Shown here: positions 1 through 61,766 of the stretch, piece by piece
Position numbering within the stretch: the first letter of the stretch is position 1
How the letters are laid out: every line of letters starts with the position of its first letter
NCBI GenBank assembly: GCA_900770385.1
Contig: CAAGKK010000016.1
Span: 12,221-76,220 of the forward strand
Origin: Clostridia bacterium
Lineage (GTDB): Bacteria > Bacillota > Clostridia > TANB77 > CAG-508
Direction: 5' to 3'
DNA length: 64,000 bases
Program-made: the position numbers and the translations under genes
Notes under the pieces: model-generated
Databases searched by the model: none
Seen by the model: only the letters and a program-made list of their open reading frames with translations
What the model was told of the DNA's origin: nothing

Positions 1-7
1 AGATTTT

Positions 8-607
8 ATGGATAAAAAGAAAATGGAAAATTTACGAGAAAGCAATATACAAGATTATATGCAAGCTTGTAAAGCACAAGGAAAAACATGCACAAGGGCA
101 CAGGCAGAAAATTTAGTAGATTCTGCAATCAATGATGCGGCAAGAATAAAAGGTATAAAATCTGGGGCAAATTTACCAGGTGCAGAATTAAAACCAAAAA
201 CACAAACAACACAACAAGAGAAACCTCAATCACAACCACAGCAAGAAACTAATGAGCAGAGAGAAAGAAGAGGTAGAATGACTAGAATAGATGAAGAAAG
301 AAGGAACCAAAGAAAATCTGTGGCACAAAGAAGAAATGAAAGTCAAAGAAAAAGAGAAGAAGAAAAAAGGAAACTTGCAAATGATGAGCATCAAGAAAAT
401 AAGCAGGGTGATAAAGGAGTAAAAGATTCGCAAGGAAGAACAAGAGAGGTAAAAAGAATAAACACAAATCAACCAAGGAGTGGACAAACAAGAACAAATA
501 CAAATAAATCACCAATGGGTGGAACAACAAGAACAAATACAAGTAAATCACCAATAGGTGGACCAACAAATACAAATGTAAATCAAAATAATGGTCCAAT
601 AGTATAA
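8..607 (+). CDS. hypothetical K/R/Q/T-rich low-complexity protein
   Basis: ATG ORF, first of four tightly packed same-strand ORFs (gaps 12-15 nt). Composition is strongly biased. A 39-nt tandem duplication at 488-565 encodes TRTNT(N/S)KSP(M/I)GG. No motif I recognise. Confidence 0.45.
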   Translation: MDKKKMENLRESNIQDYMQACKAQGKTCTRAQAENLVDSAINDAARIKGIKSGANLPGAELKPKTQTTQQEKPQSQPQQETNEQRERRGRMTRIDEERRNQRKSVAQRRNESQRKREEEKRKLANDEHQENKQGDKGVKDSQGRTREVKRINTNQPRSGQTRTNTNKSPMGGTTRTNTSKSPIGGPTNTNVNQNNGPIV

Positions 608-621
608 AAGGAGGGGTCAAT

Positions 622-1149
622 ATGGGGCTAAAAAGTAAAATAGAGATTTTTTGGTCAGAACATAGAGACCCTATTTTATTTTATACAATAATAATAGGAT
701 CAATAATAGTAATAACACAATGTTTAAATTTGGTTGCAAAGGCCAATATAGCACAAAATCAAATAGCAGAAGAAAATAGCAATCAAATAGAAGTAAAAAC
801 ATCACCAAAAGAAGATATAGAAAATAAAAAATTAGTAGAACAATTTTTAGAGTACTGTAAAAACAACAAAATAGAAGAAGCATATAACTTAATTTCAGAT
901 GAGTGTAAAAAAGAAAAATATAAAACACTAGCAGACTTTAAAACAAATTATTATAATAAAATTTTTAATAAAAAGAGAAGTGTAGAAATAAAAAAACAAA
1001 AAAACAATTCATATAAAGTTATATTTTATGAAGATATGCTAGAAAAAGGAAAAGCAGATGAAAATACAAGCATAACAGATTATTATACAATACAAGATAG
1101 CGTAATAGAAATAAAATTAAATATAAATACACAAAACAACATAAAATAA
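622..1149 (+). CDS. hypothetical membrane-anchored protein
   Basis: RBS aaaggagggg lies upstream. One N-terminal TM helix (ILFYTIIIGSIIVITQ). The soluble part resembles the repeated modules of the 447-aa ORF at 2627. Confidence 0.45.
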   Translation: MGLKSKIEIFWSEHRDPILFYTIIIGSIIVITQCLNLVAKANIAQNQIAEENSNQIEVKTSPKEDIENKKLVEQFLEYCKNNKIEEAYNLISDECKKEKYKTLADFKTNYYNKIFNKKRSVEIKKQKNNSYKVIFYEDMLEKGKADENTSITDYYTIQDSVIEIKLNINTQNNIK

Positions 1150-1161
1150 AAAGGAGCAAAA

Positions 1162-2613
1162 ATGTCCGTAAAAGAATATGGAAAAGAAAAACTACAAGGT
1201 TTAAAAGGAAAAGTAGTAACAGCCGTAAAAGCTTTTGCATTAAAATGGGGAACAATAATAGGCGGTGGATTATTATTAATAATTATTCTTACATCTGTAA
1301 TATCATCATTAATTATAAGTGCATTAGGTGGAGATGATGGAGGAAATACAGGAGACTGGGAATCTGCATCAGAAGATTCTTGGGAACAGTTTGTAAGATA
1401 TTTACGCCAATGCGAATATGGAGAAGGAACTACATATAAGAATGCCTCTGGAGTAGATTGCTATAAGGTAATGCCTGACGGAGGTGGTGGTCTTGCAGTT
1501 GGATATGGAGTAGATATTGCTACTCATGGATTAAAATTGAAATCATTAGGTTATTCTATATCAAGTGGATCACTAATACCTGTATCAGTAGTAGATTCAA
1601 TAGAAAAGGAAGAAGAAGAAAAAAAATATAATGATATAGAAAAACTATGTACTGCAAATAATATAAATTTAACAATATTTCAAAAATATGCATTAGTATC
1701 CAGGACATACAATTATGGACTAGAGGGAGGAACAGGACAAGCAACATGGTTCTATATATATCCATCAACATTAACTTTTGTTCAAGCATACAAAAAATAT
1801 TACAACCAATCTAAGGATACAAATTATGGTGATTATACAAAAATGAATTTAAAAAACCAATTATTTATTAACTATATGACATGGCTAGATTATAGAGCTA
1901 CAGGAACACATCCAGGCGGATGGGAAACAAGAAGAAAATCAGAATGGTGTTTGTTTCAAACTGGATATTTCGGATGGGGGCTAAAGAACGGAGGAGCCTA
2001 TCCAAAAGGTTTTGACGAATATTGTATAATATCCGATATTTCTGGAGGAACTCCAGGAAAGACAGGAAAAATAAACAGAGGAGGTGTAGAAGTACAAACA
2101 TACACATCGGCATCTAAAAGAACATATGTCTTATATGATCAAACAAAAGGAAGTTGGAAAGATACAAATTGGGGAACAAGTGGACATACAATAGGACAAT
2201 GGGGATGTCCAGGAGCATCAGGAGCTACTATTTTAACAGCAATGGGATATCCTAAAATGACACCAGATAAATTAAATACTATGTATAATGAAGGAGTATC
2301 CAATGTTATGAGAAGGTATGTAAAATATACTAAACCATATGAATGTGGAAGACTGCCTAATACGACAAATGCTAAAAAGGATATAATAAATTGGTTAAAA
2401 ACTGGCAATCCTGTGCACTTTCATGTAATTGGTCCTAACGGAGGAGGAAGTAATAGATTTGCTTATACAGAACATTGGATGGCATTATTAGATGTAGATG
2501 TGAATGGAAGCAATGTATACTTAGCACCTGGGGCAGGTGGAAAACCAGGATGGTATTCAATAGATGAAGTAACAAAATCATTATGTTGTTATGCAAAAGT
2601 AAGCAAAAAGTAG
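1162..2613 (+). CDS. membrane-anchored bifunctional cell-wall hydrolase (lysozyme-like muramidase + papain-like Cys peptidase), CwlT-like
   Basis: N-terminal TM helix. Lysozyme-like block CEYGEG...DGGGGLAVGYGVD...FQKYALVSRTYNYG. C-terminal Cys/His block GQWGCPGASGATILTAMGY ... YTEHWMALLDVD. The architecture recalls conjugative-element hydrolases such as ICEBs1 CwlT. Confidence 0.6.
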   Translation: MSVKEYGKEKLQGLKGKVVTAVKAFALKWGTIIGGGLLLIIILTSVISSLIISALGGDDGGNTGDWESASEDSWEQFVRYLRQCEYGEGTTYKNASGVDCYKVMPDGGGGLAVGYGVDIATHGLKLKSLGYSISSGSLIPVSVVDSIEKEEEEKKYNDIEKLCTANNINLTIFQKYALVSRTYNYGLEGGTGQATWFYIYPSTLTFVQAYKKYYNQSKDTNYGDYTKMNLKNQLFINYMTWLDYRATGTHPGGWETRRKSEWCLFQTGYFGWGLKNGGAYPKGFDEYCIISDISGGTPGKTGKINRGGVEVQTYTSASKRTYVLYDQTKGSWKDTNWGTSGHTIGQWGCPGASGATILTAMGYPKMTPDKLNTMYNEGVSNVMRRYVKYTKPYECGRLPNTTNAKKDIINWLKTGNPVHFHVIGPNGGGSNRFAYTEHWMALLDVDVNGSNVYLAPGAGGKPGWYSIDEVTKSLCCYAKVSKK

Positions 2614-2626
2614 GAGATAAAAGAAC

Positions 2627-3970
2627 ATGAATAAAAAACAAAAACTGATTTTAGCAATAATGTCATTGATAGTTATTTTTATAATAATATTATTACTAAT
2701 GCTAAATAGTAAAAGTAAAGAAAATATGGAAGTAAATTCAAATGCAGATGAAATAAATATATTTGGAGAAAAAGATTATAATAATACTATATATAAAGAT
2801 TATAATAAAAGTGAAATAAATAAAAAATTAGAAGCACTTGATATTTATTCAAGGTATAACTTAGTGGACTCAATAAGTAATAAATATATTCAAAATACTG
2901 GTTTGCAACAAGCGGATATATTGTTGAAAATGCTTGCTACAGACTATAAGGAGAAATATAAGATTAATAAAGAAAATGTCTTGAAAATCAAAACAGATAT
3001 TCCAATGCTAAAAGGAAAAGAGGAATATAAAACTATATTAACAAGCGCAATTGGAGCACAAGTAGAAAAAAACATATATGTATATATAGTAAAAGGAGTA
3101 GGAAGAGTTACTGGAACAGAAAAGCGATTTGAGTACAATATTTTAATTGAAATAGATGAAGAAGAAGCGACATATGCAATATATCCAGATCAATACATAA
3201 AAGATAAGGAATATGATAAATTAAAAATTGGTAGTACAATTAACTATGATGTAAACAAGATTACAAGAAATGATAATAATGAATTCATGTATGATACAGA
3301 ATCTGATAAGAAGATAGCCAACAGTTATTTTAGTAATTATTCAGAGTTATTAGAATATTATCCAGAAGAAGCATACAATAGATTAGATTCTGAATACAAA
3401 AGTGAAAGATATAAAAGTTTAGAAGCATTTAAGGAATATGTTAGCAAAATATCATATACAATATACACAATGAACATAAATAAATATAAAGTACACAAAA
3501 CAGATAACTATACGGATTATCTTTGCACAGATCAATATAATAATTATTATATATTCAGAGAAAAAGACGGAATAATGAACTATACGGTATTTTTAGATTC
3601 ATACACAGTTGATTTAGATGTGTTTAAAGAAAATTATGAAAAAGCAAGTGATGAAGAAAAAGTATCACTTAATGTTGGTAAATTTAAACAAATGTTAAAT
3701 ACAAAAGATTATAATACAATATATAACAAATTAAATGAAACTTTTAGAAAAAATAACTTTTCTACCGTATCAAAATTAGAAGAATACTTAAAGAAAAATA
3801 CTTATGAAATAAATTCAATAAAAGTAGAAAATAAAAATCAACAAAATGACTATTATGTGTGTGAATGTACACTAGTAGACCAAACCAATACAGAACAAAC
3901 AAAGAAAATGACAATAATGATAAAATTATTAGATAATAATAATTTTTCAATGTCTTTTAGTATAAAATAA
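2627..3970 (+). CDS. hypothetical membrane-anchored protein with internally repeated modules
   Basis: N-terminal TM helix (LILAIMSLIVIFIIILLLML). At least three similar modules (EYYPEEAYNRLDSEYKSERYKSLEAFKEYV; MLNTKDYNTIYNKLNETFRKNNFSTVSKLEEYL). Last gene before a hairpin terminator. Confidence 0.45.
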   Translation: MNKKQKLILAIMSLIVIFIIILLLMLNSKSKENMEVNSNADEINIFGEKDYNNTIYKDYNKSEINKKLEALDIYSRYNLVDSISNKYIQNTGLQQADILLKMLATDYKEKYKINKENVLKIKTDIPMLKGKEEYKTILTSAIGAQVEKNIYVYIVKGVGRVTGTEKRFEYNILIEIDEEEATYAIYPDQYIKDKEYDKLKIGSTINYDVNKITRNDNNEFMYDTESDKKIANSYFSNYSELLEYYPEEAYNRLDSEYKSERYKSLEAFKEYVSKISYTIYTMNINKYKVHKTDNYTDYLCTDQYNNYYIFREKDGIMNYTVFLDSYTVDLDVFKENYEKASDEEKVSLNVGKFKQMLNTKDYNTIYNKLNETFRKNNFSTVSKLEEYLKKNTYEINSIKVENKNQQNDYYVCECTLVDQTNTEQTKKMTIMIKLLDNNNFSMSFSIK

Positions 3971-4356: not shown

Positions 4357-5361
4357 ATGTTTATACCAGATGCTATTTTTTATGAAGAGAATATAAAAGA
4401 ATATGAATTAGGAAAAATACTTTTGCAAAGATATGAAAAACTAAATATACCAATGGTAATAATAGAAAACCATAATAATATAGAGCAGATGAGAAAAAAA
4501 GCAAATAAAGAATTTCCACAAATGAAGCGAAATTTAATTATTGCAACAAGAAAAACGCATAAATATGTAGAAAATCACAAAGTTTCAGATTTTTTAGTAC
4601 CATATACTTCATCTGGATGTATAGCAATGTGTATGTACTGCTATTTAGTATGCAATTATAATAAATGTGCATATTTAAGGTTGTTTGTAAATAGAGAACA
4701 TATGCTGAATAAAATAAAAAGAACAGCACAAAATTCAGAAAAGGAATTAGTGTTTGAAATAGGTAGTAACAGTGATTTAATTTTAGAAAATACAATAACA
4801 GGAAACTTAGAATGGACAATAGAAAATTTTAAAAATGAACCTAAAGGCAAATTAACATTTCCAACAAAATTTGATATGGTTGATCCAATTCTTCCACTAA
4901 ATCATAATGGAAAAATAATAGTAAGGATGAGTTTAAATCCAGAAGAAATAATCAACAAAATAGAATTTGGAACATCCAGATTAAACAATAGAATACAAGC
5001 AATAAATAAGATGGTGGAAGCAGGATATACTGTTGGAGTGCTAATAGCACCTGTTGTTTTAGTAGACAATTGGAAAGAATTATATGAAAACTTATTAAAA
5101 CAAATGTTAGATCAATTAAGCTTAAAGGCAAAAAAAGAAATATTTTTTGAAATAATATTTATGACATATAGCTATGTGCATAATGCAATAAATCACGAAG
5201 CTTTTCCTAATGCTATAGAATTATATAATAAGGAACAAATGATAGGAAGGGGAAGAGGAAAATATGCTTATAGACCTGCAATAAAAGAAGAAGCCAAGAA
5301 ATATATAGAAGAGTTAGTAAAAAAATATTTTCCACAAAATGAGATAAAGTATATTGTGTAA
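4357..5361 (+). CDS. splB: spore photoproduct lyase (radical SAM)
   Basis: N-terminus MFIPDAIFYEEN is typical of SplB. Radical-SAM cluster CIAMCMYC (CxxxCxxC). Length 334 aa. RBS caaggag. Confidence 0.9.
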   Translation: MFIPDAIFYEENIKEYELGKILLQRYEKLNIPMVIIENHNNIEQMRKKANKEFPQMKRNLIIATRKTHKYVENHKVSDFLVPYTSSGCIAMCMYCYLVCNYNKCAYLRLFVNREHMLNKIKRTAQNSEKELVFEIGSNSDLILENTITGNLEWTIENFKNEPKGKLTFPTKFDMVDPILPLNHNGKIIVRMSLNPEEIINKIEFGTSRLNNRIQAINKMVEAGYTVGVLIAPVVLVDNWKELYENLLKQMLDQLSLKAKKEIFFEIIFMTYSYVHNAINHEAFPNAIELYNKEQMIGRGRGKYAYRPAIKEEAKKYIEELVKKYFPQNEIKYIV

Positions 5362-5370
5362 AAATCTAAA

Positions 5371-5667
5371 TTATTCATTATTAACTATTAATTAGATTAT
5401 ATGTATGGGCGGACACAGGGTTCCGCCCATAGCTACGAAGAAATAGCTTATAAATATTCAGCCTACATTTTGAGTACTTTCTTTCCAAATTAGACCCTCC
5501 AAGACAAGGAGTAATCCGTATGCCTCAAAGGGCTGTCGGGCCCTAATTTTCCAAAAAAGTCTCAAAATAGTCTGAATTCTATAAATTATTAATCATTCAT
5601 TATTCACTATTAATTAAATCATATGTAGGGTCGGACGCCTCTGTCCGCCCGTGGCTACGAAGAAATA
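5371..5667 (+). repeat. composite intergenic repeat: A-unit (AT arm + GC hairpin) / 120-nt core / A-unit
   Basis: Hairpins at 5403-5433 (gtatgggcgga-cacagggt-tccgcccatagc) and 5625-5651 (gtagggtcggac-gcctct-gtccgcccg). Each is preceded by tattcattatt(a/c)actattaatta and followed by gctacgaagaaata. The same architecture recurs at 8 other loci in the window. Confidence 0.9.
5457..5576 (+). repeat. 120-nt conserved core with terminal inverted repeats (candidate MITE or structured RNA)
   Basis: TTCAGCCTACATTTTGAG ... CTCAAAATAGTCTGAA termini. Nearly identical copies at 13472-13591(-), 36506-36626 and 61562-61681. Internal GC hairpins GGGCTGTCGGGCCC and CCTCC-N7-GGAG. Confidence 0.85.
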
Positions 5668-5790
5668 CCAAAAATAAAAATATAATAAAGAAAACAAAAA
5701 AGATATTTTATGAAATTACTAAGAACCAAACAGCAATTTAATACTCATAAAAAGCAATAACAAACATATAATTAATATAGGTGATTTTTT

Positions 5791-7032
5791 ATGAAAAGAA
5801 TAATATCAATATTAATTATTTTAATAGTGAGTTTCAATATAGTAAGCTTTGCAGATGATAAAATTGAAGAAGAAAGCTCAAAAGAAGTAAAAGAAGTTAT
5901 ACAAACAGCAGCAGAGGTAAGCAAAAAGCCATCTATTAATTCAAGACAGGCAGTTGTAATGGATAGAAATAGCAAAAGCATTTTATATGGTAAAAATGAA
6001 AATGTTAAAACAAAAATGGCTTCTACTACTAAAATAATGACAGCAATGGTAGTATTGCAAAATACAAACTTGGAAAATACAGTAGAAGTATCAAAAAAAG
6101 CAGCATTAACAGGAGGTTCAAGATTAGGATTAAAAGAAGGAGATAAAATAACAGTAAGAGATTTATTATATGGGCTATTATTAAGGTCTGGAAATGATGC
6201 TGCCGTAGCATTAGCTGAATATGTAGGAGGTAGCATAGAAGGTTTTGCTAAACTAATGAACGAAAATACAATAGGATTAGGATTAAAAAATACACATTTT
6301 GTAACACCACATGGATTGGATCAAGAAGAACATTATACAACAGCATATGAATTAGCTATTATAGCAGACTATGCCTTAAAAAACAAGACATTTGCCCAAA
6401 TAGTAAATACTAAAAACTGCACAATACATATAAATAACTATGCAAAGAATTTAAATAATACCAATGAATTGCTAGGAAATTTAAATGGTGTATATGGCGT
6501 AAAAACAGGCTTTACTAATGGTGCAGGAAGATGCTTGGTAACATCTATTAAAAGAGAAAATTTAGATGTAATTTGTGTGGTTTTAGGTGCAGATACAAAA
6601 AAAGATAGAACAAAAGACAGTGTAAAATTGATTGAATATGTTTTTGGCAATTATAAAACTATAAATTTGACTAAAGATATAGAAGAAGATTTTGAAAAAT
6701 GGAACCAAATTAATAAAAATAGAATATATATAGAAAAAGGAAAAAACAACAATTTAAATCTAGCATTAGAAAAAAAAGAATATACATATCCAATAGAAAA
6801 TAACACAGAAGATAAAATAAAAATGGAGATTCAAGCAAATTTGAATTTAAAAGCACCAGTAAAAAAAGGTACTAAAATAGGGGAACTAACAATATATTAT
6901 AAAGGAGAAATGATAAATAAAATAAACATAGTAAACTTAAACGAGGTAAATAAAAAGAAAATAGAAAATTATATATTAGACTTTGCAAGCAATTATGATA
7001 ATTATTTAGAAAAAATATTTGAAATAAAATAA
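5791..7032 (+). CDS. D-alanyl-D-alanine carboxypeptidase (PBP5/DacF-like serine peptidase S11)
   Basis: Signal peptide. Active-site motifs SxxK (ASTTK), SxN (RSGND) and KTG (VKTGFT). Confidence 0.85.
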   Translation: MKRIISILIILIVSFNIVSFADDKIEEESSKEVKEVIQTAAEVSKKPSINSRQAVVMDRNSKSILYGKNENVKTKMASTTKIMTAMVVLQNTNLENTVEVSKKAALTGGSRLGLKEGDKITVRDLLYGLLLRSGNDAAVALAEYVGGSIEGFAKLMNENTIGLGLKNTHFVTPHGLDQEEHYTTAYELAIIADYALKNKTFAQIVNTKNCTIHINNYAKNLNNTNELLGNLNGVYGVKTGFTNGAGRCLVTSIKRENLDVICVVLGADTKKDRTKDSVKLIEYVFGNYKTINLTKDIEEDFEKWNQINKNRIYIEKGKNNNLNLALEKKEYTYPIENNTEDKIKMEIQANLNLKAPVKKGTKIGELTIYYKGEMINKINIVNLNEVNKKKIENYILDFASNYDNYLEKIFEIK

Positions 7033-7093
7033 AAATAATATTTATGCTTGACTAAACCGTATATTTTTGTTATTATATTAATGTTACAAATGT

Positions 7094-7169
7094 GCGGGAA
7101 TAGCTCAGTTGATAGAGCGCTGCCTTGCCAAGGCAGAGGTCGCGGGTTTGAGCCCCGTTTCCCGCTCCA
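7094..7169 (+). tRNA. tRNA-Gly (anticodon GCC), CCA encoded
   Basis: Cloverleaf folded by hand. Acceptor GCGGGAA/TTCCCGC, anticodon loop TTGCCAA. Unusual D-loop AGTTGATA and T-loop TTTGAGC. Confidence 0.9.
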
Positions 7170-7179
7170 AATATTATAT

Positions 7180-7254
7180 GGCGATATAGCCAAGTGGTAA
7201 GGCACGAGTCTGCAAAACTCCGATTCCCCGGTTCGAATCCGGGTGTCGCCTCCA
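7180..7254 (+). tRNA. tRNA-Cys (anticodon GCA), CCA encoded
   Basis: Acceptor GGCGATA/TGTCGCC, anticodon loop CTGCAAA, T-arm CCCGG-TTCGAAT-CCGGG, discriminator U73. Confidence 0.9.
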
Positions 7255-7295
7255 AATGTGTAAATGCTTTGCATTTACAATTAATAATTAAAAAT
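7247..7295 (+). repeat. left copy of 49-nt direct repeat (starts with the last 8 nt of tRNA-Cys)
   Basis: cgcctccaaatgtgtaaatgctttgcatttacaattaataattaaaaat matches 7782-7830 at 44/49 positions. Confidence 0.85.
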
Positions 7296-7380
7296 GAAGA
7301 GTGAAAAGTGAATAATATGTAAAGGCAAAAGGCATTTACACAATTATTCATTTTTAATTATTAAATATTAACTATTAATT
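7259..7380. repeat. palindromic AT-arm/hairpin element related to the A-units
   Basis: Hairpins tgtaaatgc-ttt-gcatttaca (7259-7279) and tgtaaaggc-aaaa-ggcatttaca (7318-7340). Inverted arms ttaataattaaaaatgaa (7281-7298) / ttcatttttaattattaa (7347-7364). The arms share the aatgaataat motif with the other repeats. Confidence 0.55.
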
Positions 7381-7428
7381 TTATTATTTTAATTCTAAAT
7401 ATTATTTATATCTGAAAGGTTTATATCT

Positions 7429-7779
7429 ATGAAAAATAATCCATTATTAGATCAATCCTTAAGTTTTGCATCTGAAATTATTAAACTGCAGAAAAAACTT
7501 ATAAAAGAGAAAAAAGAAACAATCATTTCCAAACAAATAATTAGAAGTGCTACAAGCATAGGAGCAAATATAAATGAAGCAAATTATGCAAATAGTAAGC
7601 CAGATTTTATATCTAAAATGCATATAGCACTAAAAGAATGTGCTGAAACAGAATATTGGATTAGGCTATTAGAAAAAGCAGAATATATTTCTAAGGAATA
7701 TGCTATAGATGTATTAGCAAAATGTTTATCAATTAAGAAAATGTTGATAGCTTCTTTAAATACAATTAAATCAAAGTGA
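7429..7779 (+). CDS. four-helix bundle protein (23S rRNA intervening-sequence protein family)
   Basis: 116 aa. Family signature RSATSIGANINEA ... DFISKMHIALKECAETEYWIRLL. Confidence 0.85.
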   Translation: MKNNPLLDQSLSFASEIIKLQKKLIKEKKETIISKQIIRSATSIGANINEANYANSKPDFISKMHIALKECAETEYWIRLLEKAEYISKEYAIDVLAKCLSIKKMLIASLNTIKSK

Positions 7780-7781
7780 AA

Positions 7782-7830
7782 CGCCTCCAAATGTGTAAAT
7801 GCAAAGCATTTAAAATTAACAATTAAAAAT
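7782..7830 (+). repeat. right copy of 49-nt direct repeat
   Basis: cgcctccaaatgtgtaaatgcaaagcatttaaaattaacaattaaaaat. The hairpin loop is AAA instead of TTT. Confidence 0.85.
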
Positions 7831-7849
7831 TTCATATAGCATAAAAACA

Positions 7850-7886
7850 CATAAGAGCTAGGACTATAAAAATCCTAGCTCTTATG
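7850..7886 (+). terminator. hairpin terminator
   Basis: cataagagctagga-loop-tcctagctcttatg is a 14-bp stem. The T tract is weak. Confidence 0.6.
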
Positions 7887-8173
7887 CTATTTGGTGATGC
7901 ACAATGCATATGTGCATAATTATTATACTACAATATTTTTAATTTGTAAAATAAAAAATATTTTTTTGTAATTTTTGGTATAAAAATGTCGGAAACCCTT
8001 ACGCAAATAAGAATTTTGTTTATCTTTTTTACATAATGTGTTGAAAAATAATTTAAAATGTTATATAATTGTAATATATGGTCATTTGGCAATGTTGAAG
8101 TACGCAAAACCCAGTTCCGTAAAGGGAAAAAATGGGGTTGGTGTAAAATAAATGTAACACAAAAAATAGCCTA

Positions 8174-8201
8174 TTGACTAATATTTAAAAAAATTTATAA
8201 T
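8174..8201 (+). promoter_or_regulatory. sigma-A-type promoter candidate for the adhesin gene
   Basis: TTGACT (8174-8179), 16-nt spacer, TATAAT (8196-8201). An 11-bp direct repeat ataatatatta occurs twice (8197-8207, 8210-8220). Confidence 0.4.
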
Positions 8202-8243
8202 ATATTAATATAATATATTAAATTATCCAAAGGGGTATGAGAA

Positions 8244-11200
8244 ATGAGAAAGAAAAGAATTTTAACTTTATCTGGAATTTTATTAGGAGTTTTAATGTGC
8301 TTTAACTTTAACAAAGTACAAGCAGTAGACTCCGTTTTTAGTGGTGCAAAGTTAACAAGGGAAACTTTATCAACAGTAGCACAGGCAAATGAACTAAATG
8401 AAATTAAATATCTTGGAATTTCTAAAATTAGGCAATCAGGAAAGTATTATCAATTAGATACTACAACAACAAATGAGGGTAAAAAAGTTTGGAAAATTAC
8501 TAGAAGAGATTCTGCAACTTCTACTACTCCAATTTACGATGAAATATATTATTGTGTAAATGCTACACAAGGATTTATTGGAAATGATAATAGAGTAATG
8601 GCAGAAGGAGCAATAGATGCATATCCAAATCAATATGTAATGAATAATACAAATAAAGATAAAATTTCAAGTCTTAGTGCAGGAGATCTAGGAACAAATT
8701 ATAACAAAGTACTTTGGATATTAGATAATTCATATATACCAGGTAAATCTACAGAAGAAGAAAAGAAAGCATTATTTACAAAAGTAATGCAATATATACA
8801 AAACAATGATGGATATAATAAATTAAATAATATTATATCTCACACACCAGCAAAAGAATTAATAGAAAGTAACATGATAAGCAAAGAAGATAACGACCTT
8901 AATATGACTGACGAAGAAATTGAAATTGCACAACAATTAGCTATATGGTACTTTACTAACACATCAGTTTCAGAATATCACAATACTAAAGGAACTATGA
9001 ACACAATTTATGTGGGAGAAAACAACAAATTAGCACAGTTAAGAACATCTGGCGGTGAATTCTATGTAGAAGATTTTCAAAGGAATTTTTATAGAGGAGC
9101 TTTTAGAGAATGGAAAATGAATGCGTTATTTATGTATTTAATAAATAATGCAAATGCTAATTATAGCAAAGAAGATGTTCCAACAGTTAGTTTAGATTCA
9201 ACAAATGTAATAGTAAGAGAAAGCGCAGATGGAGAAAACTTTATAGCAGGTCCATATAAATTAACAGGAACAAACAAAGAAAAACTAGAAAAAACATATG
9301 AATATAGAACTAATAAAGAAGGCGTTAAATTAGTAGATGAAAAAGAGAAAGAAATAAGCTATTGGTCTGATTATATTGATAAATCTTTCTATATAAGAAT
9401 ACCTAAGAGTCAAGTTACAGAAAAAAATACAAACATAAGCTTAACATTAACATACAAATATAATGATAGAACATTGACATTTTTAACAGATGAAGCAAAT
9501 GCCGATAAAACACAACCGGTTGTTAATGTAAAAGAAGGAGAAATAAGAAAAGATTTAACAACAAATTTAATGTTTAATATAACCGAAATTTCTGTAGAAA
9601 AGAAATGGGACGATTACAATAACCAAGATGGAATAAGACCAGCAACAGTAAAAGTACAATTACTTGAAGATGGAAAAGTAAAAGATACAGTAGAGCTAAG
9701 TAATGATAAATTAACTCATACATGGAATAAATTATTAGCAGATAAAACATATACAGTTGTGGAATTAGATGAAAAAGGACAACAAATTAATGGAATTGGA
9801 AAATATAATAATGCTTATTCAACAACATATGAGAATGATGGTGCAAAAACTATAATAATTAATCAACATACACCAGAAAAAATAAGTAAAACAGTAACAA
9901 AAGTATGGGATGATGCAAACAACCAAGATGGAAATAGACCAAAAGAAATATTTGTTACATTATATAAAGAAGTAAATGGAACAAAAACAGTAGTAGCAGG
10001 ACAAGAAAACATAAAAATAACACAAGGTGAAAATGGTGAATGGAAATATACATGGAATGATTTACCAAAATACGACAATGGAAAAGAAATAAAATATACA
10101 GTAGAAGAAACAGCAATAAATGGATATACACCTGCTTATAGTACAGATACATTTACAATAACAAACAAATATGTTCCAGGAACAGTTAGTAGAACAGTAA
10201 AAAAAGTATGGAGTGACAATAATAACCAAGATGGAATAAGACCAAATACAGTTACAGTACAATTATATGCAGATGGAATAGCAAAAGGAGAAGCAGTTAC
10301 TTTAAATAAAGAAAACAGTTGGACATATACTTGGACAGAACTACCAGAAAAACAAAATGGTACAACAATTAATTATGAAATAAAAGAAATAAAAATAGGA
10401 AATACAGAAGTTGTAGAAAACAAAGCAGGAGAATATACAGTTTCAAGTAGTGTATCTGAAGACAAAATTACAACAACAATAACAAATACTCATACACCAG
10501 CAACAGTAGGAAAAACAGTAAAAAAAGTATGGGATGATAAAGATAATTTAGCTAGACCTACAAGTGTAAAAGTACAATTATATGCAAATGGAACAGCAAA
10601 AGACAGTCCAGTTGAATTAAACAGTGAAAATGGCTGGTCATATACATGGACAAATTTAAATGAAAAACAAGAAGGAAAAACAATAGTATATACAGTAAAA
10701 GAAATTCCTGTAAATGGATATGAAGCAAGTTACAGTGCAGAAAGCTTTGAAAATACAGACACTATTATAATTACAAATAAATATATTTCAATAGATTTTA
10801 GTTTAAGAAAATTTATTACAGCAGTTAATGACACAGAATTAAAATCAGAAGATGGAAAATATTTAAGAGAACCTAAAGTAGATCAAACAGTAATAGGAAC
10901 AAAGGATGCTAGTGGAAACACTATAACAACAGCAATATATAAGCATACAAAAGAACCTATTGCAGTACAAAAAGGAGATACTGTTACATATACAATTAGA
11001 GTATACAACGAAGGTGAAACAGATGGATATGTATCAAAAATAACAGATCATTTACCAGAATGGTTAGAATTTTTACCAGATGATGAATTAAACAAGAAAT
11101 ATTTATGGACTCAAGATACAAATAATAATAGAACAATAACAACAGATATTGCATCAAAAGGAAAAGTTACAGGAGAAGAAATATATTCTCAAAGAGAAAA

Positions 11201-13349: not shown

Positions 13350-13368
13350 AGTTAAACATATATGAAAA

Positions 13369-13398
13369 TTAGCAGACATAAAGTCTGCTAATTTTTTT
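13369..13398 (+). terminator. rho-independent terminator
   Basis: ttagcagac-ataaa-gtctgctaa followed by ttttttt. Confidence 0.85.
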
Positions 13399-13404
13399 AT
13401 AGTA

Positions 13405-13716
13405 TTGTCCGTGCGAAAAAACACAATGAATAATGAAGAATTAATAATTAAAAATGAATAATTTATAGAAATTCAGACTATTTTGAGACTTTTTTGAAAA
13501 ATTAGGGCCCGACAGCCCTTTGAGGCATACGGATTACCCATTGTCTTGGAGGGTCTAATTTGGAGAGAAAGTGCTCAAAATGTAGGCTGAAAAATTTATA
13601 TAGCTATTTCTTTGTAGTAGCTACGGGCGGACACGGGGTTCCGCCCCTACATATATATTATTTATTCTTCATTATTCACTATTAATTAAATTACCTGTAG
13701 GGGCGGACGACTCTAC
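13405..13716 (-). repeat. composite intergenic repeat, inverted orientation, plus an extra truncated + oriented unit
   Basis: Reverse-complement AT arms (aatgaataatgaagaattaataattaaaaatgaataat). Core at 13472-13591. Hairpin ctacgggcggacacggggttccgcccctac (13621-13650). A + oriented unit tattcactattaattaaattacctgtaggggcggacgactctac follows. Confidence 0.85.
13472..13591 (-). repeat. 120-nt core, inverted copy
   Basis: The reverse complement matches 5457-5576 except for a few substitutions (ctttctCtcc; acaaTGGGtaat). Confidence 0.85.
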
Positions 13717-13802
13717 AAAATTTTAAAAATATATATTAATTTCTTGATAAAATGGCATTATTAATATATAATAGTTATGTTATAAATGGGAGGCATATAT
13801 TT

Positions 13803-14453
13803 ATGAAAGAAGAAACAAAAGCAAAGATAAAAGATATTTTTGAATGGATATATTGTATAGTAATTGCAGTTGTACTTGCATTATTAATTAAGTACTATGT
13901 AGGTACTCCAACAGTTGTAAAAATGTCATCTATGTATCCAACATTCAAACAAAATGAGAGATTAATATTAAACAGAATTTATAGAACAATGCATACAACT
14001 CCAAAAAGAGGAGAAGTTATTACTTTTGAATCTCCAAGTGTTACATTTGCAGATTCTGAAAATGCAGATTTAGAAAATCCTGTTGCTAAATATGAAAATG
14101 AGCCAGAAGGATGGTTTGCTAAGTTTGTATACCATGTACTAGAAATTAATAAAACAAGTTATATAAAAAGAGTAATAGCTTTACCAGGAGAGCATTTAGA
14201 AATTAAAAATAACAAGGTTTATATAAATGGAGAAGAACTAAAAGAAGAATATCTTGCAGATGATGTTATAACAGATTCTACAGAAGGAGCTTATATTGAT
14301 TTAGTAGTTCCAGAAGGAACAGTTTTTGTTATGGGAGATAATAGACAACATAGTGGAGATTCTAGAAGATTTGGCTGTGTGCCATTTGATAAAATAGAAA
14401 GTAAAGTATGCTTTAGATTTTGGCCTTTAAATAGATTTGGAGTAATAAAATAA
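13803..14453 (+). CDS. lepB: signal peptidase I
   Basis: Motifs SMYPTF (catalytic Ser), K-box RVIALPGE and GDNRQHSGDSRRFG. Start moved to the ATG at 13803, preceded by gggagg. Confidence 0.85.
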   Translation: MKEETKAKIKDIFEWIYCIVIAVVLALLIKYYVGTPTVVKMSSMYPTFKQNERLILNRIYRTMHTTPKRGEVITFESPSVTFADSENADLENPVAKYENEPEGWFAKFVYHVLEINKTSYIKRVIALPGEHLEIKNNKVYINGEELKEEYLADDVITDSTEGAYIDLVVPEGTVFVMGDNRQHSGDSRRFGCVPFDKIESKVCFRFWPLNRFGVIK

Positions 14454-14470
14454 GATTAAGGAAAATAAGT

Positions 14471-15355
14471 ATGTTTGAAAATTTAATAGGTAATGAAAAA
14501 ACAAAACAAGATTTGAAAACAGTATTACAAAACAATAAAGTTTCACATAGTTATATGTTTATAGGAGATAAAGGAATTGGCAAATATCAATTTGCAAAAG
14601 AATTTGCAAAAGGTATATTATGTTTAAACGAAGAAAAACCATGTGGAAGTTGCAAATCTTGTATAGAATTTAACAACAACAATAATCCAGATTATAAATA
14701 TATAGGTTTAGAAGATGAATCTAGCATAAAAATAGAAGCTATTAGAAAAATGCAAGAAAAAGTTCAAGAATTACCTATTGTATCTAGTAAAAAAGTTTAT
14801 ATTATAGATGATAGCGAATATATGACAAAAGAAGCGCAAAATTGTTTATTAAAAACAATAGAAGAGCCGCCAGAATTTGTAACAGTAATATTAATAACAT
14901 CAAATGAGAATAAAATATTAAATACTATAAAATCAAGGTGTTTGAAAATATATTTTAGTAATATAAATAATAACGAGTTAAAACAATTTTTAATGGACAA
15001 ATATAAAATAAATAATATATCAGAAAACATGTTGAGAGCTTATAATGGAAGTATTGGAAAAGCACTTAAAATACATGAAAATGAAGAATTATACAAGCAA
15101 ATAGAAGCGGTATTTAATAATATTGAAAACTATAATATAATTACAGCAATAAAAAATTTAGAAGTTTTGTATAAAGCAAAAGAAAACATAAATGAGTTGT
15201 TAGATTATATAAATGTACTGTTAATATATAAAGCAAAAGATAATGTTAAATATGTAGATTATATAAAAGAAGTAGAGAATACAAAAAGAAAATTAAATTC
15301 AAATTGTAATTACGATATGAGCATAGATTCATTATTATTTAAAATTTGGCAATAA
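14471..15355 (+). CDS. holB: DNA polymerase III subunit delta'
   Basis: HSYMFIGDKGIGK Walker-like loop and zinc module CGSCKSC. Followed by yaaT, as in Bacillus. Confidence 0.8.
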   Translation: MFENLIGNEKTKQDLKTVLQNNKVSHSYMFIGDKGIGKYQFAKEFAKGILCLNEEKPCGSCKSCIEFNNNNNPDYKYIGLEDESSIKIEAIRKMQEKVQELPIVSSKKVYIIDDSEYMTKEAQNCLLKTIEEPPEFVTVILITSNENKILNTIKSRCLKIYFSNINNNELKQFLMDKYKINNISENMLRAYNGSIGKALKIHENEELYKQIEAVFNNIENYNIITAIKNLEVLYKAKENINELLDYINVLLIYKAKDNVKYVDYIKEVENTKRKLNSNCNYDMSIDSLLFKIWQ

Positions 15356-15366
15356 GGAGGAAAATA

Positions 15367-16239: not shown

Positions 16240-16259
16240 AATGAAAGAAGGTGAAAAAA

Positions 16260-16430
16260 ATGGCTTATAAAATAACAGATGCTTGTATATCTTGTGGAGC
16301 ATGTGCATCAGCATGTCCTGTAGAATGCATAAAACAAGGAGATTCTAAATACGAAATAAATCAAGATGCTTGTATATCTTGTGGAACTTGTAGTAGTGTT
16401 TGCCCAGTAGAAGCTCCAGTTGAGGAATAA
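16260..16430 (+). CDS. fdx: clostridial-type 2x[4Fe-4S] ferredoxin (56 aa, below ORF-track cutoff)
   Basis: Hand translation: MAYKITDACISCGACASACPVECIKQGDSKYEINQDACISCGTCSSVCPVEAPVEE. Two CxxCxxCxxxCP motifs. RBS gaaggtg. Confidence 0.85.
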   Translation: MAYKITDACISCGACASACPVECIKQGDSKYEINQDACISCGTCSSVCPVEAPVEE

Positions 16431-16436
16431 GAATTT

Positions 16437-16468: not shown

Positions 16469-16488
16469 ATATAGTAGAAAATTTCTTT

Positions 16489-16518
16489 CTACGGGCGGAC
16501 ACAGGGTTTCGCCCCTAC
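16489..16518 (-). repeat. solo REP-like hairpin unit between convergent genes
   Basis: ctacgggcggacacagggtttcgcccctac followed by atatatattatt (reverse-oriented A-unit). Confidence 0.75.
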
Positions 16519-16525
16519 ATATATA

Positions 16526-17476: not shown

Positions 17477-17477
17477 A

Positions 17478-23259: not shown

Positions 23260-23294
23260 ATAATTTATTGCTACGAAAAAATTCTTTATAAATA

Positions 23295-23328
23295 TTCAGC
23301 CTACATTTTGAGCACTTTCTTTCCAAAT
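23295..23328 (+). repeat. 5' fragment of the 120-nt core
   Basis: ttcagcctacattttgagcactttctttccaaat is identical to the start of the other cores, then diverges. Confidence 0.8.
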
Positions 23329-23344
23329 AATTTCATTGTAATTA

Positions 23345-23434
23345 GTATTTGGAATTTCGTATTTGGCGGTATATAGAAAATTCTTCGAAGTATTTTAACT
23401 ATACTCAAAATACCAAACACAAAACACCAAATAC
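23345..23434. repeat. second palindromic repeat family (GTATTTGG... / ...CCAAATAC arms)
   Basis: Left arm gtatttggaatttcgtatttgg, right arm ccaaacacaaaacaccaaatac. A similar element lies at 40829-40924 and a half copy at 36405-36460. Confidence 0.6.
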
Positions 23435-23545
23435 ATTTAAATTATTAATTATTAATTATTCATCATTCACTATTAATTAAATCATATGTATGGGCGGACG
23501 CATCTGTCCGCCCGTTGCCCAATTTGTAACAAAATAAAAAAAGTC

Positions 23546-36404: not shown

Positions 36405-36712
36405 ATAATTTCATTTTCCAAACATCAAAACACAAAATAACTAATACATAAATTATTAAATATTAACTATTCATTTTTCAATATTAATTAAATACTATAA
36501 AAATATTCAGCCTACATTTTGAGTACTTTCTTTCCAAATTAGACCCTCCAAGACAAGGGGGTAATCCGTATGCCTCAAAGGGCTGTCGGGCCCTAATTTT
36601 CCAAAAAAGTCTCAAAATAGTCTGAACTCTATAAATTATTAATTGTTAATTATTCATCATTCATTATTAATTAAATTATATGTAGGGGCGGAACCCTGTG
36701 TCCGCCCGAATA
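36405..36712 (+). repeat. composite repeat (second-family half copy + AT arm without hairpin + core + A-unit)
   Basis: The core is at 36506-36626. The right hairpin is gtaggggcggaaccctgtgtccgcccg (36682-36708). The left arm runs straight into the core with no GC hairpin. Confidence 0.85.
36506..36626 (+). repeat. 120-nt core copy (121 nt)
   Basis: Matches 5457-5576 except acaaGGGGGtaat. Confidence 0.85.
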
Positions 36713-49288: not shown

Positions 49289-49318
49289 TTACGGGCGGAA
49301 CTCTGTGTCCGCCCGTAA
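49289..49318. repeat. solo REP-like hairpin 3 nt downstream of the glmS stop
   Basis: ttacgggcggaactctgtgtccgcccgtaa, preceded by attattcatttcg arm remnants. Confidence 0.75.
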
Positions 49319-60696: not shown

Positions 60697-61512
60697 ATGA
60701 ATTCAAAATTTAAAATCTTTATATACATTATTGTTGCTATATTTTTAATTTTAGTTAGTATAAAAATTGCAAATAACAAAAGCAACAAATTAACAGTGCA
60801 AACTAGCAGTTCAGCTGCATTTTCAAATACTAAAATTGGGTGGGGAATAAAGAGAAACAAGAATCATAGTCAACCAGATTTAGGAAAAAAGAACAAAGAA
60901 TTAATAGAAAAATATAAAGGTTATGCAATGGGAAACAGTAATGAAAAAAGAGTATATTTAACATTTGATTTAGGTTATGAGGCAGGTTATACAAATAAAA
61001 TATTAGATATATTAAAGGAAAATAATGTAAATGCTACATTTTTTATTACAGCACACTATGTAAATACTGCTTCTGATATAGTACAAAGAATGATAGATGA
61101 AGGGCATATTATAGGAAATCATACCGTAAATCACAAAAGTATGCCAGATTTGAGCTCAGAAGAGCTAAAAAAAGAAATAATGGATTTACATACAGCAGTT
61201 TATAATAAGTTTAATTATGAAATGACATATATGAGACCTCCCAAAGGAGAATATAGTGAAAGAACCTTATGCGAAGTTACAAATTTAGGATATACACCTG
61301 TAATGTGGAGCTTTGCATATGCAGATTGGGATGAAAAAAAACAACCATCAAATAATGAAGGAAAAAAGAAAATTATTGAAAATATGCATAATGGAGAAAT
61401 TATGCTATTACATGCTACTTCAAAAACAAATATGGAGATATTGGATGAGGTTATTAAACAAATAAAAAATATGGGGTATGAATTTAAATCTATTAATGAA
61501 TTTATAATGTAG
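60697..61512 (+). CDS. pdaA: delta-lactam-biosynthetic de-N-acetylase (polysaccharide deacetylase)
   Basis: WGIKRNKNHSQPD...VYLTFDLGYEAGYT...GHIIGNHTVNH closely parallels B. subtilis PdaA. N-terminal anchor. Confidence 0.85.
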   Translation: MNSKFKIFIYIIVAIFLILVSIKIANNKSNKLTVQTSSSAAFSNTKIGWGIKRNKNHSQPDLGKKNKELIEKYKGYAMGNSNEKRVYLTFDLGYEAGYTNKILDILKENNVNATFFITAHYVNTASDIVQRMIDEGHIIGNHTVNHKSMPDLSSEELKKEIMDLHTAVYNKFNYEMTYMRPPKGEYSERTLCEVTNLGYTPVMWSFAYADWDEKKQPSNNEGKKKIIENMHNGEIMLLHATSKTNMEILDEVIKQIKNMGYEFKSINEFIM

Positions 61513-61766
61513 GGGAGGAACCCTGTGTCCGCCCGTGCTACGAAGGGAAACTTTAACAATATTCAGCCTACATTTTGAGCACTTTCTTTCCAAATTAGAC
61601 CCTCCAAGACAAGGAGTAATCCGTATGCCTCAAAGGGCTGTCGGGCCCTAATTTTTCAAAAAAGTCTCAAAATAGTCTGAACTCTATAAATTATAAATTA
61701 TTAACTATTCATTATTCACTATTAATTAAATCATATGTAGGGGCGGATGCCTCTGTCCGCCCGAAA
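61506..61766 (+). repeat. composite repeat (A-unit / core / A-unit)
   Basis: Hairpins gtaggggaggaaccctgtgtccgcccg (61509-61535, containing the pdaA TAG stop) and gtaggggcggatgcctctgtccgcccg (61737-61763, ending 1 nt before the yqfC RBS). Confidence 0.9.
61562..61681 (+). repeat. 120-nt core copy
   Basis: Nearly identical to 5457-5576. Confidence 0.85.

What the first reader, a model, noticed from the sequence alone, without database searches (positions are those of the whole stretch)
5371..5667. Dense composite intergenic repeat family built from REP-like GTAG hairpins (9 loci in 64 kb)
Unit A has three parts: an AT-rich arm (TATTCATTATTCACTATTAATTAAATCATAT), a GC hairpin GTAGGGGCGGA(C)-loop-(G)TCCGCCCGTAG, and GCTACGAAGAAATA. 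At 5371-5667 two A-units in direct orientation flank a 120-nt core. Full, partial or solo versions occur at 13405-13716(-), 16489-16518, 23270-23522, 27224-27350, 28842-28925, 36405-36712, 49289-49318 and 61506-61766. All are intergenic. The hairpins are the only GC-rich DNA in these spacers. A 5' GTAG followed by a GC-rich palindrome is the defining signature of REP elements mobilised by RAYT (IS200/IS605-type Y1) transposases. Those are described mainly in Proteobacteria, and I know of no described family with this architecture in a low-GC spore former. No transposase gene lies in this window.
Basis: partly seen in the sequence, partly recalled or inferred. Interest (0 to 1): 0.8.

Follow-up and report, generated by a model that had tools for sequence, protein, structure and literature searches.

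The report
REP hairpin arrays in gut Clostridia
The GC-rich hairpins scattered between genes of this AT-rich, spore-forming gut bacterium are REP elements, a known kind of short repeat tied to RAYT transposases, arranged here in unusual same-direction arrays with a conserved 120-base module that vary from strain to strain.

Summary
The window holds 12 GTAG-tagged GC hairpins (GGGCGGA-N8-TCCGCCC), where chance predicts none. All are intergenic, and there are five copies of a roughly 120-nt structured core.

The hairpins fit the REP type that the literature assigns to RAYT/TnpAREP subclass 2.4 (Bertels group 4): a GTAG foot, three G-C pairs at the stem base, and "double-foot" variants. The identical hairpin lies in frame inside RAYT-like genes of related low-GC gut Clostridia. 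The same hairpin type also turned up in many phyla.

The composites are BIME-like mosaics: REPs in direct orientation joined by two linker types, one short and AT-rich, one about 200 nt long and carrying the core. Panels of strains show these spacers are the main intergenic indel sites. Arrays collapse by recombination between direct repeats, and linkers are swapped at the same site. A syntenic outgroup lacks REPs at two occupied sites, so REPs were gained there.

No RAYT was found in about 800 kb (redundant) of this species' DNA. It is also missing from the murG-topA position where three relatives carry one. Current mobilisation is therefore unproven.

Verdict: a new variant of a known kind, of moderate interest.

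The parts
5371..5667 (+). Composite array: AT arm, REP, tail, 120-nt core, AT arm, REP, tail
   Evidence: strain alleles with only one unit
5403..5428 (+). REP (tag GTAT, stem GGGCGGA/TCCGCCC). Loop CACAGGGT is inverted; second foot CTAC at 5433-5436
5457..5576 (+). Canonical 120-nt core with terminal inverted repeat TTCAGCCTACATTTTGAG / CTCAAAATAGTCTGAA
   Evidence: a 127-nt stretch containing it (5452-5578) folds with z -4.8 (+ strand) and -5.1 (- strand) as DNA
5625..5650 (+). REP, loop type b (GTAG GGTCGGACGCCTCTGTCCGCCC)
13405..13716 (-). Composite in reverse orientation (decayed REP, AT arm, core, tail, REP), followed by a + oriented AT arm and a truncated REP at 13697-13716
13472..13591 (-). 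Canonical core
   Evidence: (I1, I2)
13625..13650 (-). REP, loop type a (GTAG GGGCGGAACCCCGTGTCCGCCC on the - strand)
16474..16518 (-). Solo REP (16493-16518) followed on its own (-) strand by an AT-rich GTAG...CTAC hairpin (16474-16492), between convergent genes
23270..23522 (+). Tail, variant core (23295-~23430), AT arm, REP (23488-23513, tag GTAT, loop type b)
27241..27347 (+). Direct REP doublet (27241-27267 and 27322-27347) joined by the short AT linker, inside the gatC-gatA spacer
28846..28922 (+). Decayed REP remnant (28846-28874) and degenerate REP (28897-28922) in the gatA-gatB spacer
36415..36712 (+). Fragment of a variant long linker, AT arm, canonical core (36506-36626), AT arm, REP (36682-36707, loop type a)
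   Evidence: (L186 shows a different left part at the same site)
49289..49318 (+). Solo REP with TTAC/GTAA feet and a 12-bp stem, downstream of glmS
61506..61766 (+). Composite: REP (61509-61534; its TAG is the deacetylase stop codon), tail, core (61562-61681), AT arm, REP (61737-61762)

Best explanation
The GC hairpins are REP elements of the GTAG-tagged class that goes with RAYT/TnpAREP transposases of subclass 2.4 (Bertels group 4).

In this lineage of low-GC, spore-forming gut Clostridia they colonised intergenic spacers. Most lie downstream of genes, with the GTAG strand on the coding strand, which is probably also the leading strand.

They became organised into BIME-like mosaics. REPs in direct orientation are joined by a small set of linkers:
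- a short AT-rich linker of about 55 nt;
- a long linker of about 200 nt, made of the tail, a 120-nt hairpin-forming core and an AT arm.

Shown by comparing strains: arrays shrink by recombination or slippage between direct REPs, and linker types are exchanged at the same site, probably by gene conversion. Shown against an outgroup: new sites acquired REPs.

Inferred, not shown: new copies arise when a RAYT cleaves and rejoins single-stranded DNA at the GTAG-plus-hairpin signal.

Whether this species still has its RAYT is open. It may now hold REPs that persist and rearrange by recombination alone.
For: (1) Anatomy. Nine of 12 copies have GTAG at the stem foot and two have GTAT. Stems are 7-8 bp and start with GGG/CCC. 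Some copies have a second CTAC foot. This matches the 'long' and 'double foot' REPs of subclass 2.4.

(2) Enzyme link. Relatives L029, L162 and L052 (plus L070, which passes at domain level only) carry RAYT-like genes matching NCBIfam NF047646 at E 1e-15 to 1e-18, with motifs NH[VI]H, WQ and Y..NNP. The best PDB match is 4ER8, E. coli TnpAREP. The window's type-b REP sits in frame inside those genes in L029 and L162.

(3) More than chance and extragenic.

(4) Orientation and placement. In about 37 REP-bearing spacers of the species, 26 REPs between tandem genes have the tag on the coding strand, 8 have it antisense, and only 2 lie in divergent spacers. GC skew is positive over most of the window (13 of 16 4-kb bins, cumulative skew rising throughout).

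(5) Gain of sites. The syntenic outgroup L211 has no REP in the deacetylase-yabP spacer or the recO-SRP RNA spacer, and only two decayed REPs in the DUF3048-era spacer.

(6) Dynamics. Among 10 strains over 20 kb, nearly all the intergenic indels of 15 nt or more lie in REP spacers. Deletion junctions fall at different points of the repeated unit. Canonical core, variant core and coreless alleles occupy the same site.
Against: No RAYT was found in about 800 kb of redundant DNA from this species. The murG-topA interval that holds a RAYT in L165 and L208 (and, on the topA side, L209) holds none in L196.

The RAYT genes of the closest relatives (L208, L209, L137) contain a different REP type, GGGTCGGCG...CGACGACCC, which is absent from the window.

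REP doublets here are direct, not inverted as in REPINs and BIMEs.

Core copies at about 20 sites are at least 95% identical. That suggests recent spread of a larger unit, which simple REP biology does not explain.
Confidence: 0.7

Rival explanations
1. The unit of about 225 nt (core, AT arm, REP), or the whole REP-core-REP composite, is an active non-autonomous IS200/IS605-type element (a MITE or PATE). Its subterminal hairpins serve as left and right ends, it moves as a block, and it prefers to land just 3' of an existing REP.
For: Direct hairpins flanking a conserved interior resemble the left and right ends of IS200/IS605. Core copies are at least 95% identical at about 20 sites and were found only in this species. 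In every copy with a recognisable right flank the order is core, AT arm, REP. Indels at S1 (L004), S9 and S10 all begin after one TCCGCCC and end after the next.
Against: The left boundary varies, and the left REP and tail are missing at about 5 sites. Other junctions lie elsewhere: within GTAGGGGCGGA at S5 and within AAATTATT in L002. These junctions mostly coincide with long identical stretches between the repeats (clearest at S5 and S9), as expected for recombination. The sister lineage L210 already has the composite at S9, so the solo allele there is a deletion. No autonomous parent, TnpA or TnpB was seen, and there was no Rfam, plasmid, phage or viral-contig match.
Confidence: 0.15
2. The elements are kept mainly as RNA or regulatory devices. 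The hairpins would stabilise or punctuate mRNAs, for example inside gatCAB, and the core would be a small structured RNA.
For: Most tags are on the coding strand and most copies lie downstream of genes. Copies lie inside an operon next to ribosome-binding sites. The composite folds well: z = -4.2 on the + strand and -5.7 on the - strand as RNA.
Against: No T tract follows the hairpins, and the terminator scan does not pick them. Several lie downstream of separate, proper terminators. Presence, copy number and linker type differ freely between strains at the same gene pair. There is no Rfam match. The core shows too little variation to test covariation. There is no consistent neighbouring gene.
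Confidence: 0.1
3. Chance similarity of low-complexity AT-rich spacers, or an assembly artefact.
For: None beyond the AT richness of the arms.
Against: Zero hits in 100 shuffles against 11 observed. The same loci appear in many independent assemblies.
Confidence: 0.01

Closest known systems
REP sequences associated with TnpAREP/RAYT subclass 2.4 (Quentin et al. 2018, PMC6006769), equal to RAYT group 4 (Bertels et al. 2017, PMC5581495)
   Same: 5' GT[AG]G foot; stem base of three G-C pairs; double-foot GTAG...CTAC variants; REPs inserted in frame in the RAYT gene (seen here in relatives); extragenic location, mostly between tandem or convergent genes.
   Different: The host is a 27% GC spore-forming member of the Clostridia; the papers I read name no Firmicutes for this REP class. 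Density is high at 12 per 64 kb, whereas Bertels reports only about 14 occurrences per replicon of the 16-mers flanking group 4 genes. REPs lie in direct arrays. No RAYT has yet been found in this species.
BIMEs of Escherichia coli (mosaics of REPs with conserved linker motifs)
   Same: REPs combined with a small set of recurring linker motifs; the number of units varies between strains.
   Different: BIME REPs alternate in orientation, while these are direct. The linkers here are very AT-rich, and one type carries a 120-nt hairpin-forming module. Protein binding, known for BIMEs from my own knowledge (IHF, gyrase), is untested here.
REPINs (inverted REP doublets, Bertels and Rainey 2011)
   Same: REP-based units larger than a single REP that exist as sequence populations within a genome.
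   Different: REPINs are two inverted REPs that fold together. Here the doublets are direct, and only one head-to-head pair exists (13625 and 13697).
IS200/IS605-derived MITEs (PATEs), and MITE-like stem-loop repeats of Firmicutes such as bcr1, RUP and EFAR
   Same: Non-coding units of 120-300 nt that form hairpins, sit between genes, and show presence/absence differences between strains.
   Different: No fixed ends, no target-site signature and no autonomous parent were found. The unit always ends in a REP.

Membership tests
REP (GTAG-tagged repetitive extragenic palindromes) | Unpaired 5' GT[AG]G tetranucleotide at the foot of the hairpin | tested here: met
   GTAG in 9 of 12 copies, GTAT in 2, TTAC in 1
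REP (GTAG-tagged repetitive extragenic palindromes) | Short GC-rich palindrome (20-40 bp) that folds as single-stranded DNA | tested here: met
   7-12 bp stems; -8 to -14 kcal/mol as DNA; z -2.9 to -7 for intact copies
REP (GTAG-tagged repetitive extragenic palindromes) | High copy number and extragenic location | tested here: met
   12 copies in 64 kb, all intergenic; about 37 REP-bearing spacers in the sampled DNA of the species. A whole-genome count was not possible.
REP/RAYT system (REPtron) | A RAYT (TnpAREP) gene in the same genome, flanked by or containing the REP | tested here: inconclusive
   None in about 800 kb of redundant DNA, and absent at the murG-topA site. Present with the same REP in relatives L029 and L162. 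The complete genome was not available.
RAYT subclass 2.4 (for the relatives' proteins) | [quoted passage not shown] | tested here: met
   PNHVHMII, WQRNYYEH and Y(M/I)(Q/K)NNP, with inserts [18 protein letters not shown] and GSSRTPTPT. NF047646 E 1e-15 to 1e-18 but below its 80-bit cut-off. Best PDB hit 4ER8, E = 6.6e-5.
REP/RAYT system | Cleavage and rejoining of single-stranded REP DNA by the RAYT | not testable with these tools
   Needs biochemistry
REPIN | Two REPs in inverted orientation that fold into one long hairpin | tested here: not met
   Doublets at 5403/5625, 27241/27322 and 61509/61737 are direct
BIME | Mosaic of REPs with a limited set of conserved linkers | tested here: met
   Short AT linker and long core-bearing linker recur at many sites and are exchanged between strains
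BIME | Successive REPs in alternating orientation | tested here: not met
   Direct orientation in all arrays except one junction
IS200/IS605-type MITE (PATE) | Constant left and right ends with subterminal hairpins, and insertion next to a fixed short target | tested here: not met
   The left boundary varies and the left hairpin is optional. Indel junctions fall at several positions.
Intrinsic terminator | GC hairpin followed by a T tract | tested here: not met
   The terminator scan did not pick the REPs in the scanned stretch (5000-24000); the true terminators lie beside them. The flanks printed for all 12 REPs show no T tract.
Known RNA families (Rfam 15) | Match to a covariance model | tested here: not met
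   Only glmS and two tRNAs in the window; nothing on the composite at E up to 10 apart from one chance snoRNA hit

The most novel reading that the evidence does not exclude
The module of about 225 nt (120-nt hairpin core, AT arm, one REP) is a young REP-tailed mobile element specific to this species. It would be mobilised in trans by a subclass 2.4 RAYT and would land next to existing REPs. If the RAYT has been lost, it would spread only by gene conversion. Either way this would be a way for REPs to carry cargo that differs from REPINs and BIMEs.
Probability: 0.2. Interest if true: 0.7.

Novelty: new variant of a known kind. Interest (0 to 1): 0.5.

Why it matters
REP/RAYT systems have been studied almost entirely in Proteobacteria, with surveys reaching Cyanobacteria and Bacteroidetes. 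This case places a dense REP population in very AT-rich, spore-forming gut Clostridia. The GC hairpins stand out sharply there, and thousands of metagenome assemblies give a ready-made strain panel.

That panel makes three things visible directly: gain of REPs at new sites, collapse of arrays, and swapping of linkers. It also offers a possible natural case of REPs that outlive their transposase.

REPs sit inside operons such as gatCAB, and one supplies a stop codon. They may therefore affect gene expression in common gut bacteria, but that is untested.

Tried and rejected
- **Rfam.** Searched at gathering and at permissive thresholds; nothing on the repeats.
- **Plasmids, phages and viral contigs.** No match to the composite or the core, so it does not match any plasmid, phage or viral contig in these collections (no IS library was available).
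- **Genome-collection scan with the hairpin pattern.** It therefore did not give a census of this organism, but it did lead to the RAYT link.
- **Hunt for this species' RAYT.** I fetched the contigs of eight RAYT relatives (P0002, P0004, P0005, P0009, P0010, P0043, P0055, and L029 from the scan). All belong to other species. Matching contig lengths from two protein searches found nothing.
- **Covariation in the core.** The 24 distinct copies are too alike to test it.
- **Naming the organism.** Cluster look-up and protein search gave no names.
- **Literature search by sequence string.** Nothing relevant.
- **Terminator and promoter reading.** Not supported.
- **TnpB guide RNA (omega RNA) remnant.** Considered for the core. 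No TnpB, no Rfam hit and no fixed right-end geometry, so judged unlikely.

Full report

It runs: AT-rich arm, GTAT plus hairpin GGGCGGA-CACAGGGT-TCCGCCC (5407-5428), tail GCTACGAAGAAATA, a 120-nt core (5457-5576), a second AT arm, GTAG plus hairpin (5629-5650), and a second tail.

The pattern GGGCGGA-N8-TCCGCCC with up to two mismatches occurs 11 times in the window. It occurred 0 times in 100 dinucleotide-preserving shuffles. A twelfth copy with a 9-nt loop lies at 27245. The repeat finder recovers the same families and shows four canonical cores that are 94-99% alike, plus a variant.

All 12 hairpins are intergenic. They are the only perfect GC-rich palindromes in the window.

The window is 27% GC. 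It encodes spore photoproduct lyase, YabP and YqfD, so "low-GC spore former" is right. Identical proteins occur in many human gut metagenome assemblies. No source gave the organism a name.

**2. What the hairpins are**

Matches came from many phyla. The loops were not random: CCTATGTG occurred 15 times, CCTGCGTG 12 times and CCCATGTG 9 times. So this is a widespread hairpin type, not a private invention of this genome.

I clustered the ORFs around the hits. In three loci the hairpin lies inside a conserved gene. One of them is L029, an uncultured Clostridium sp. with 25% GC. That gene encodes a Y1 HUH protein with these features:
- N-terminus ...SIRLKDY.YS..G.Y(Y/F)ITIC...
- HUH motif PNH(V/I)H
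- WQR.YY(E/D)HIIRNE
- Y...NP

These proteins match NCBIfam NF047646 "REP-associated tyrosine transposase" at E 1e-15 to 1e-18, below the model's own 80-bit cut-off. Two of the three match Pfam Y1_Tnp weakly; the L029 protein does not. The best solved structure for a close relative, P0002, is 4ER8, E. coli TnpAREP.

In L029 the window's type-b hairpin GTAGGGGCGGACGCCTCTGTCCGCCCG is read in frame as VGADASVRP. The family is large. One search found 2,799 relatives and another 7,097, some named "REP element-mobilizing transposase RayT".

Quentin et al. 2018 (PMC6006769) describe exactly this for TnpAREP subclass 2.4, which equals Bertels group 4:
- motifs NH[IFV]H, WQ and YIxNNP;
- REPs whose stem base is three G-C pairs, or "double foot" REPs with GTAG...CTAC;
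- uniquely, REPs inserted in frame within the transposase gene;
- hosts "Cyanobacteria, Bacteroidetes and various phyla".

The window's hairpins meet the REP criteria. They have a GTAG foot and a GGG/CCC stem base, and the tail GCTAC supplies a second foot. That second foot also explains why the loop of 5407 is inverted: read on the minus strand, it has its own GTAG tag.

**3. Relatives**

I fetched RAYT loci from seven other low-GC gut Clostridia: L127, L137, L158, L162, L165, L208 and L209. Each has GTAG hairpins in spacers and inside the RAYT gene. In most (not L158), the gene holds one REP in + orientation near nt 145-230 and one in - orientation near nt 325-410.

Type b occurs in L029, L137, L162 and L165, with a near-copy (one stem mismatch) in L209. 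A type a-like REP occurs in L158. A third type, GGGTCGGCG...CGACGACCC, is common in the RAYT genes of the closest relatives but absent from the window. None of these species has the 120-nt core.

**4. The transposase in this species**

I could not find it. tblastn with four RAYTs against the window plus about 800 kb of redundant DNA from this species found nothing.

L196 belongs to the window's species. It aligns with L208 and L209 at 78% identity across topA, and with L208 at 69% across murG. In L208 the RAYT lies between murG and topA; L209 shares the RAYT-to-topA side but has different genes upstream. In L165 it lies just after murG. In L196 that interval holds only a 106-aa ORF.

So the gene is missing from its position in relatives. 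Whether it lies elsewhere needs the full genome. Quentin et al. note that genomes with REPs but no tnpAREP are suspected cases of gene loss.

**5. The composites**

Copies from about 20 further sites of the species show a constant order: core, then CTCTATAAATTATTAAT, AT arm, GTAG and REP. This unit usually follows another REP plus the tail GCTACGAAGAAATA..TTATAAATA. At about five sites it does not.

A second way of joining REPs is a short AT linker of about 55 nt, as at 27268-27321.

The cores are at least 95% identical: 24 distinct sequences among 43 occurrences. A variant core shares the first 34 nt and the right-hand junction but has a different interior.

The core-containing stretch 5452-5578 (127 nt) folds into a long imperfect hairpin on either strand, with z about -5 as DNA. 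It matches no Rfam family, plasmid, phage or viral contig.

The arrangement is closest to E. coli BIMEs, that is, REPs plus a small set of linkers. The difference is that these REPs are direct rather than alternating.

**6. Dynamics among strains**

- **SPL-PBP spacer.** One strain keeps only the right unit, with the junction in AAATTATT. Another keeps the left arm and left hairpin fused to the right tail, with the junction in TCCGCCC. At least one of these must be a deletion.
- **gatC-gatA spacer.** Four allele sequences have two REPs and four have one (ten strains plus the window). The junction lies inside TGTAGGGGCGGA, the longest identical stretch.
- **Deacetylase-yabP spacer.** Six strains have one REP (52 nt). 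The window and three other strains have the composite (278 nt).
- **M23-adhE spacer.** Four states occur at one site: variant core, canonical core, or no core with an extra REP that is either inverted or direct. A second site also shows both core types in different strains (L196 and L187 versus L197 and L198).
- **Just beyond the window (L148-L153).** The DUF3048-era spacer and the spacer between recO and the SRP RNA gene vary in the same ways.

In a 10-strain alignment of 20 kb, the intergenic indels of 15 nt or more are, with one exception, in REP spacers. The exception is a 1.7-kb gene insertion.

Junction positions differ from case to case and mostly fall on long shared stretches (clearest at the gatC-gatA and deacetylase-yabP spacers). 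This fits recombination or slippage between direct repeats, plus gene conversion, better than transposition with fixed ends.

**7. Polarity**

An outgroup (L211-L215) has a deacetylase 78% identical to the window's and the same gene order over 18 kb.
- It has no REP between the deacetylase gene and yabP, and the gene ends in TAA.
- It has no REP between recO and the SRP RNA gene.
- It has two decayed direct REPs, and no core, in the DUF3048-era spacer.

A nearer lineage, L210 (86% identical), already has the composite at the deacetylase site.

Three conclusions follow:
- REPs were gained at two or more sites after the split from the outgroup.
- The composite at the deacetylase-yabP site is old, and the solo allele there is a deletion.
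- The core is absent from the outgroup's syntenic region and from every other species examined, which points to a newer addition within this lineage.

**8. Orientation and function**

Across about 37 REP-bearing spacers, REPs between tandem genes have the tag on the coding strand in 26 cases and on the antisense strand in 8. Three lie between convergent genes, two between divergent genes, and six could not be oriented. The spacer count is approximate because the de-duplication was crude.

GC skew is positive on the + strand in 13 of the 16 4-kb bins, and the cumulative skew rises throughout. The tag strand is therefore probably the template of the lagging strand. That is the bias known for IS608-type Y1 enzymes (my own knowledge, and the abstract of PMC6006769). 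It cannot be separated here from co-orientation with transcription.

The terminator scan (run on 5000-24000) did not pick the REPs there, and several REPs follow separate, proper terminators. A role in mRNA stability is possible but untested.

**9. Verdict**

The hairpins are a new member of a known kind: subclass 2.4-type REPs, here in low-GC Clostridia. The papers I read name no Firmicutes for this REP class.

The direct, BIME-like arrays with a 120-nt core are a new variant. RAYT-driven spread is inferred from relatives and is unproven for this genome.

Interest is moderate. The system is well suited to population-level study of how REPs are born, decay and possibly outlive their transposase.

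Noticed in passing
loci L007-L126: The motif GTAG-GGGCGGAC-CYRYGT-GTCCGCCC recurs, with a few favoured loops, in Acidobacteriota, Chloroflexota, delta-proteobacteria, Bacteroidota, Oscillospirales, cyanobacteria, Nitrospinota and others. It looks like a REP type shared across phyla, with some double-foot copies (L059, L099, L101, L108).
   Followed up: partly
L137 10145-10350; L208 10145-10350; L162 10151-10403; L029 6850-7133: [quoted passage not shown] They form an inverted pair that brackets the HUH-coding segment. In L029, L127 and L165 the gene appears frameshifted or truncated at the second REP.
   Followed up: partly
window 61509-61512: The TAG of the REP's GTAG tag is the stop codon of the polysaccharide deacetylase gene. 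The outgroup (L211) has no REP there and ends the gene with TAA and a different final pair of residues.
   Followed up: yes
L196 736-1341 compared with L208 9575-12976: In the window's species the murG-topA interval lacks the RAYT, a prepilin-peptidase-like gene and two other ORFs that are present in a relative. A 106-aa ORF lies there instead.
   Followed up: partly
window 7245-7830: A gene of the 23S_rRNA_IVP family (PF05635, 7429-7779) is flanked by direct repeats of about 45 nt (GCCTCCAAATGTGTAAATGC...GCATTTA.AATTAA). The first repeat starts in the 3' end of the tRNA at 7180-7251. The gene is absent in strain L002, so it looks like a small insertion at a tRNA end.
   Followed up: partly
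window 7342-7389: An AT-arm-like sequence (AATTATTCATTTTTAATTATTAAATATTAACTATTAATT) with no REP beside it, next to the tRNA genes.
   Followed up: no
window 16474-16492; also L149 near 16180: An AT-rich hairpin with GTAG...CTAC feet (GTAGAAAATTTCTTTCTAC) lies next to REPs at several sites. It looks like a double-foot REP whose GC stem has been replaced by A/T.
   Followed up: no
window 51175-51324 (-): A glmS ribozyme lies upstream of glmS (Rfam, 79 bits). The solo REP at 49289-49318 lies just downstream of the same gene.
   Followed up: no
window 51450-53645: The DUF2207 gene is absent in strains L148 and L150, where glmS is followed directly by uvrC.
   Followed up: no
L140 17905-19488: A 1.7-kb insertion carrying an Mbeg1-like/lipase gene lies after gatB in one strain only.
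   Followed up: no
window 8244-13349: A Cna_B surface protein of 1,701 aa has internal repeats of about 300 nt and 600-730 nt. Its length varies between strains from 1,666 to 1,909 aa.
   Followed up: no
window 1-3970 and L001/L002 1-9614: Conjugation-type genes (TraC-like, DUF87/TraG ATPase) lie just upstream of the window. The genes at the window's start differ between strains; L002 has a CHAP/lysozyme gene instead.
   Followed up: no
L149 18804-18899 (about 7 kb beyond the window end): A small SRP RNA lies upstream of dnaX. The REP array in that spacer sits between recO and this RNA gene.
   Followed up: yes
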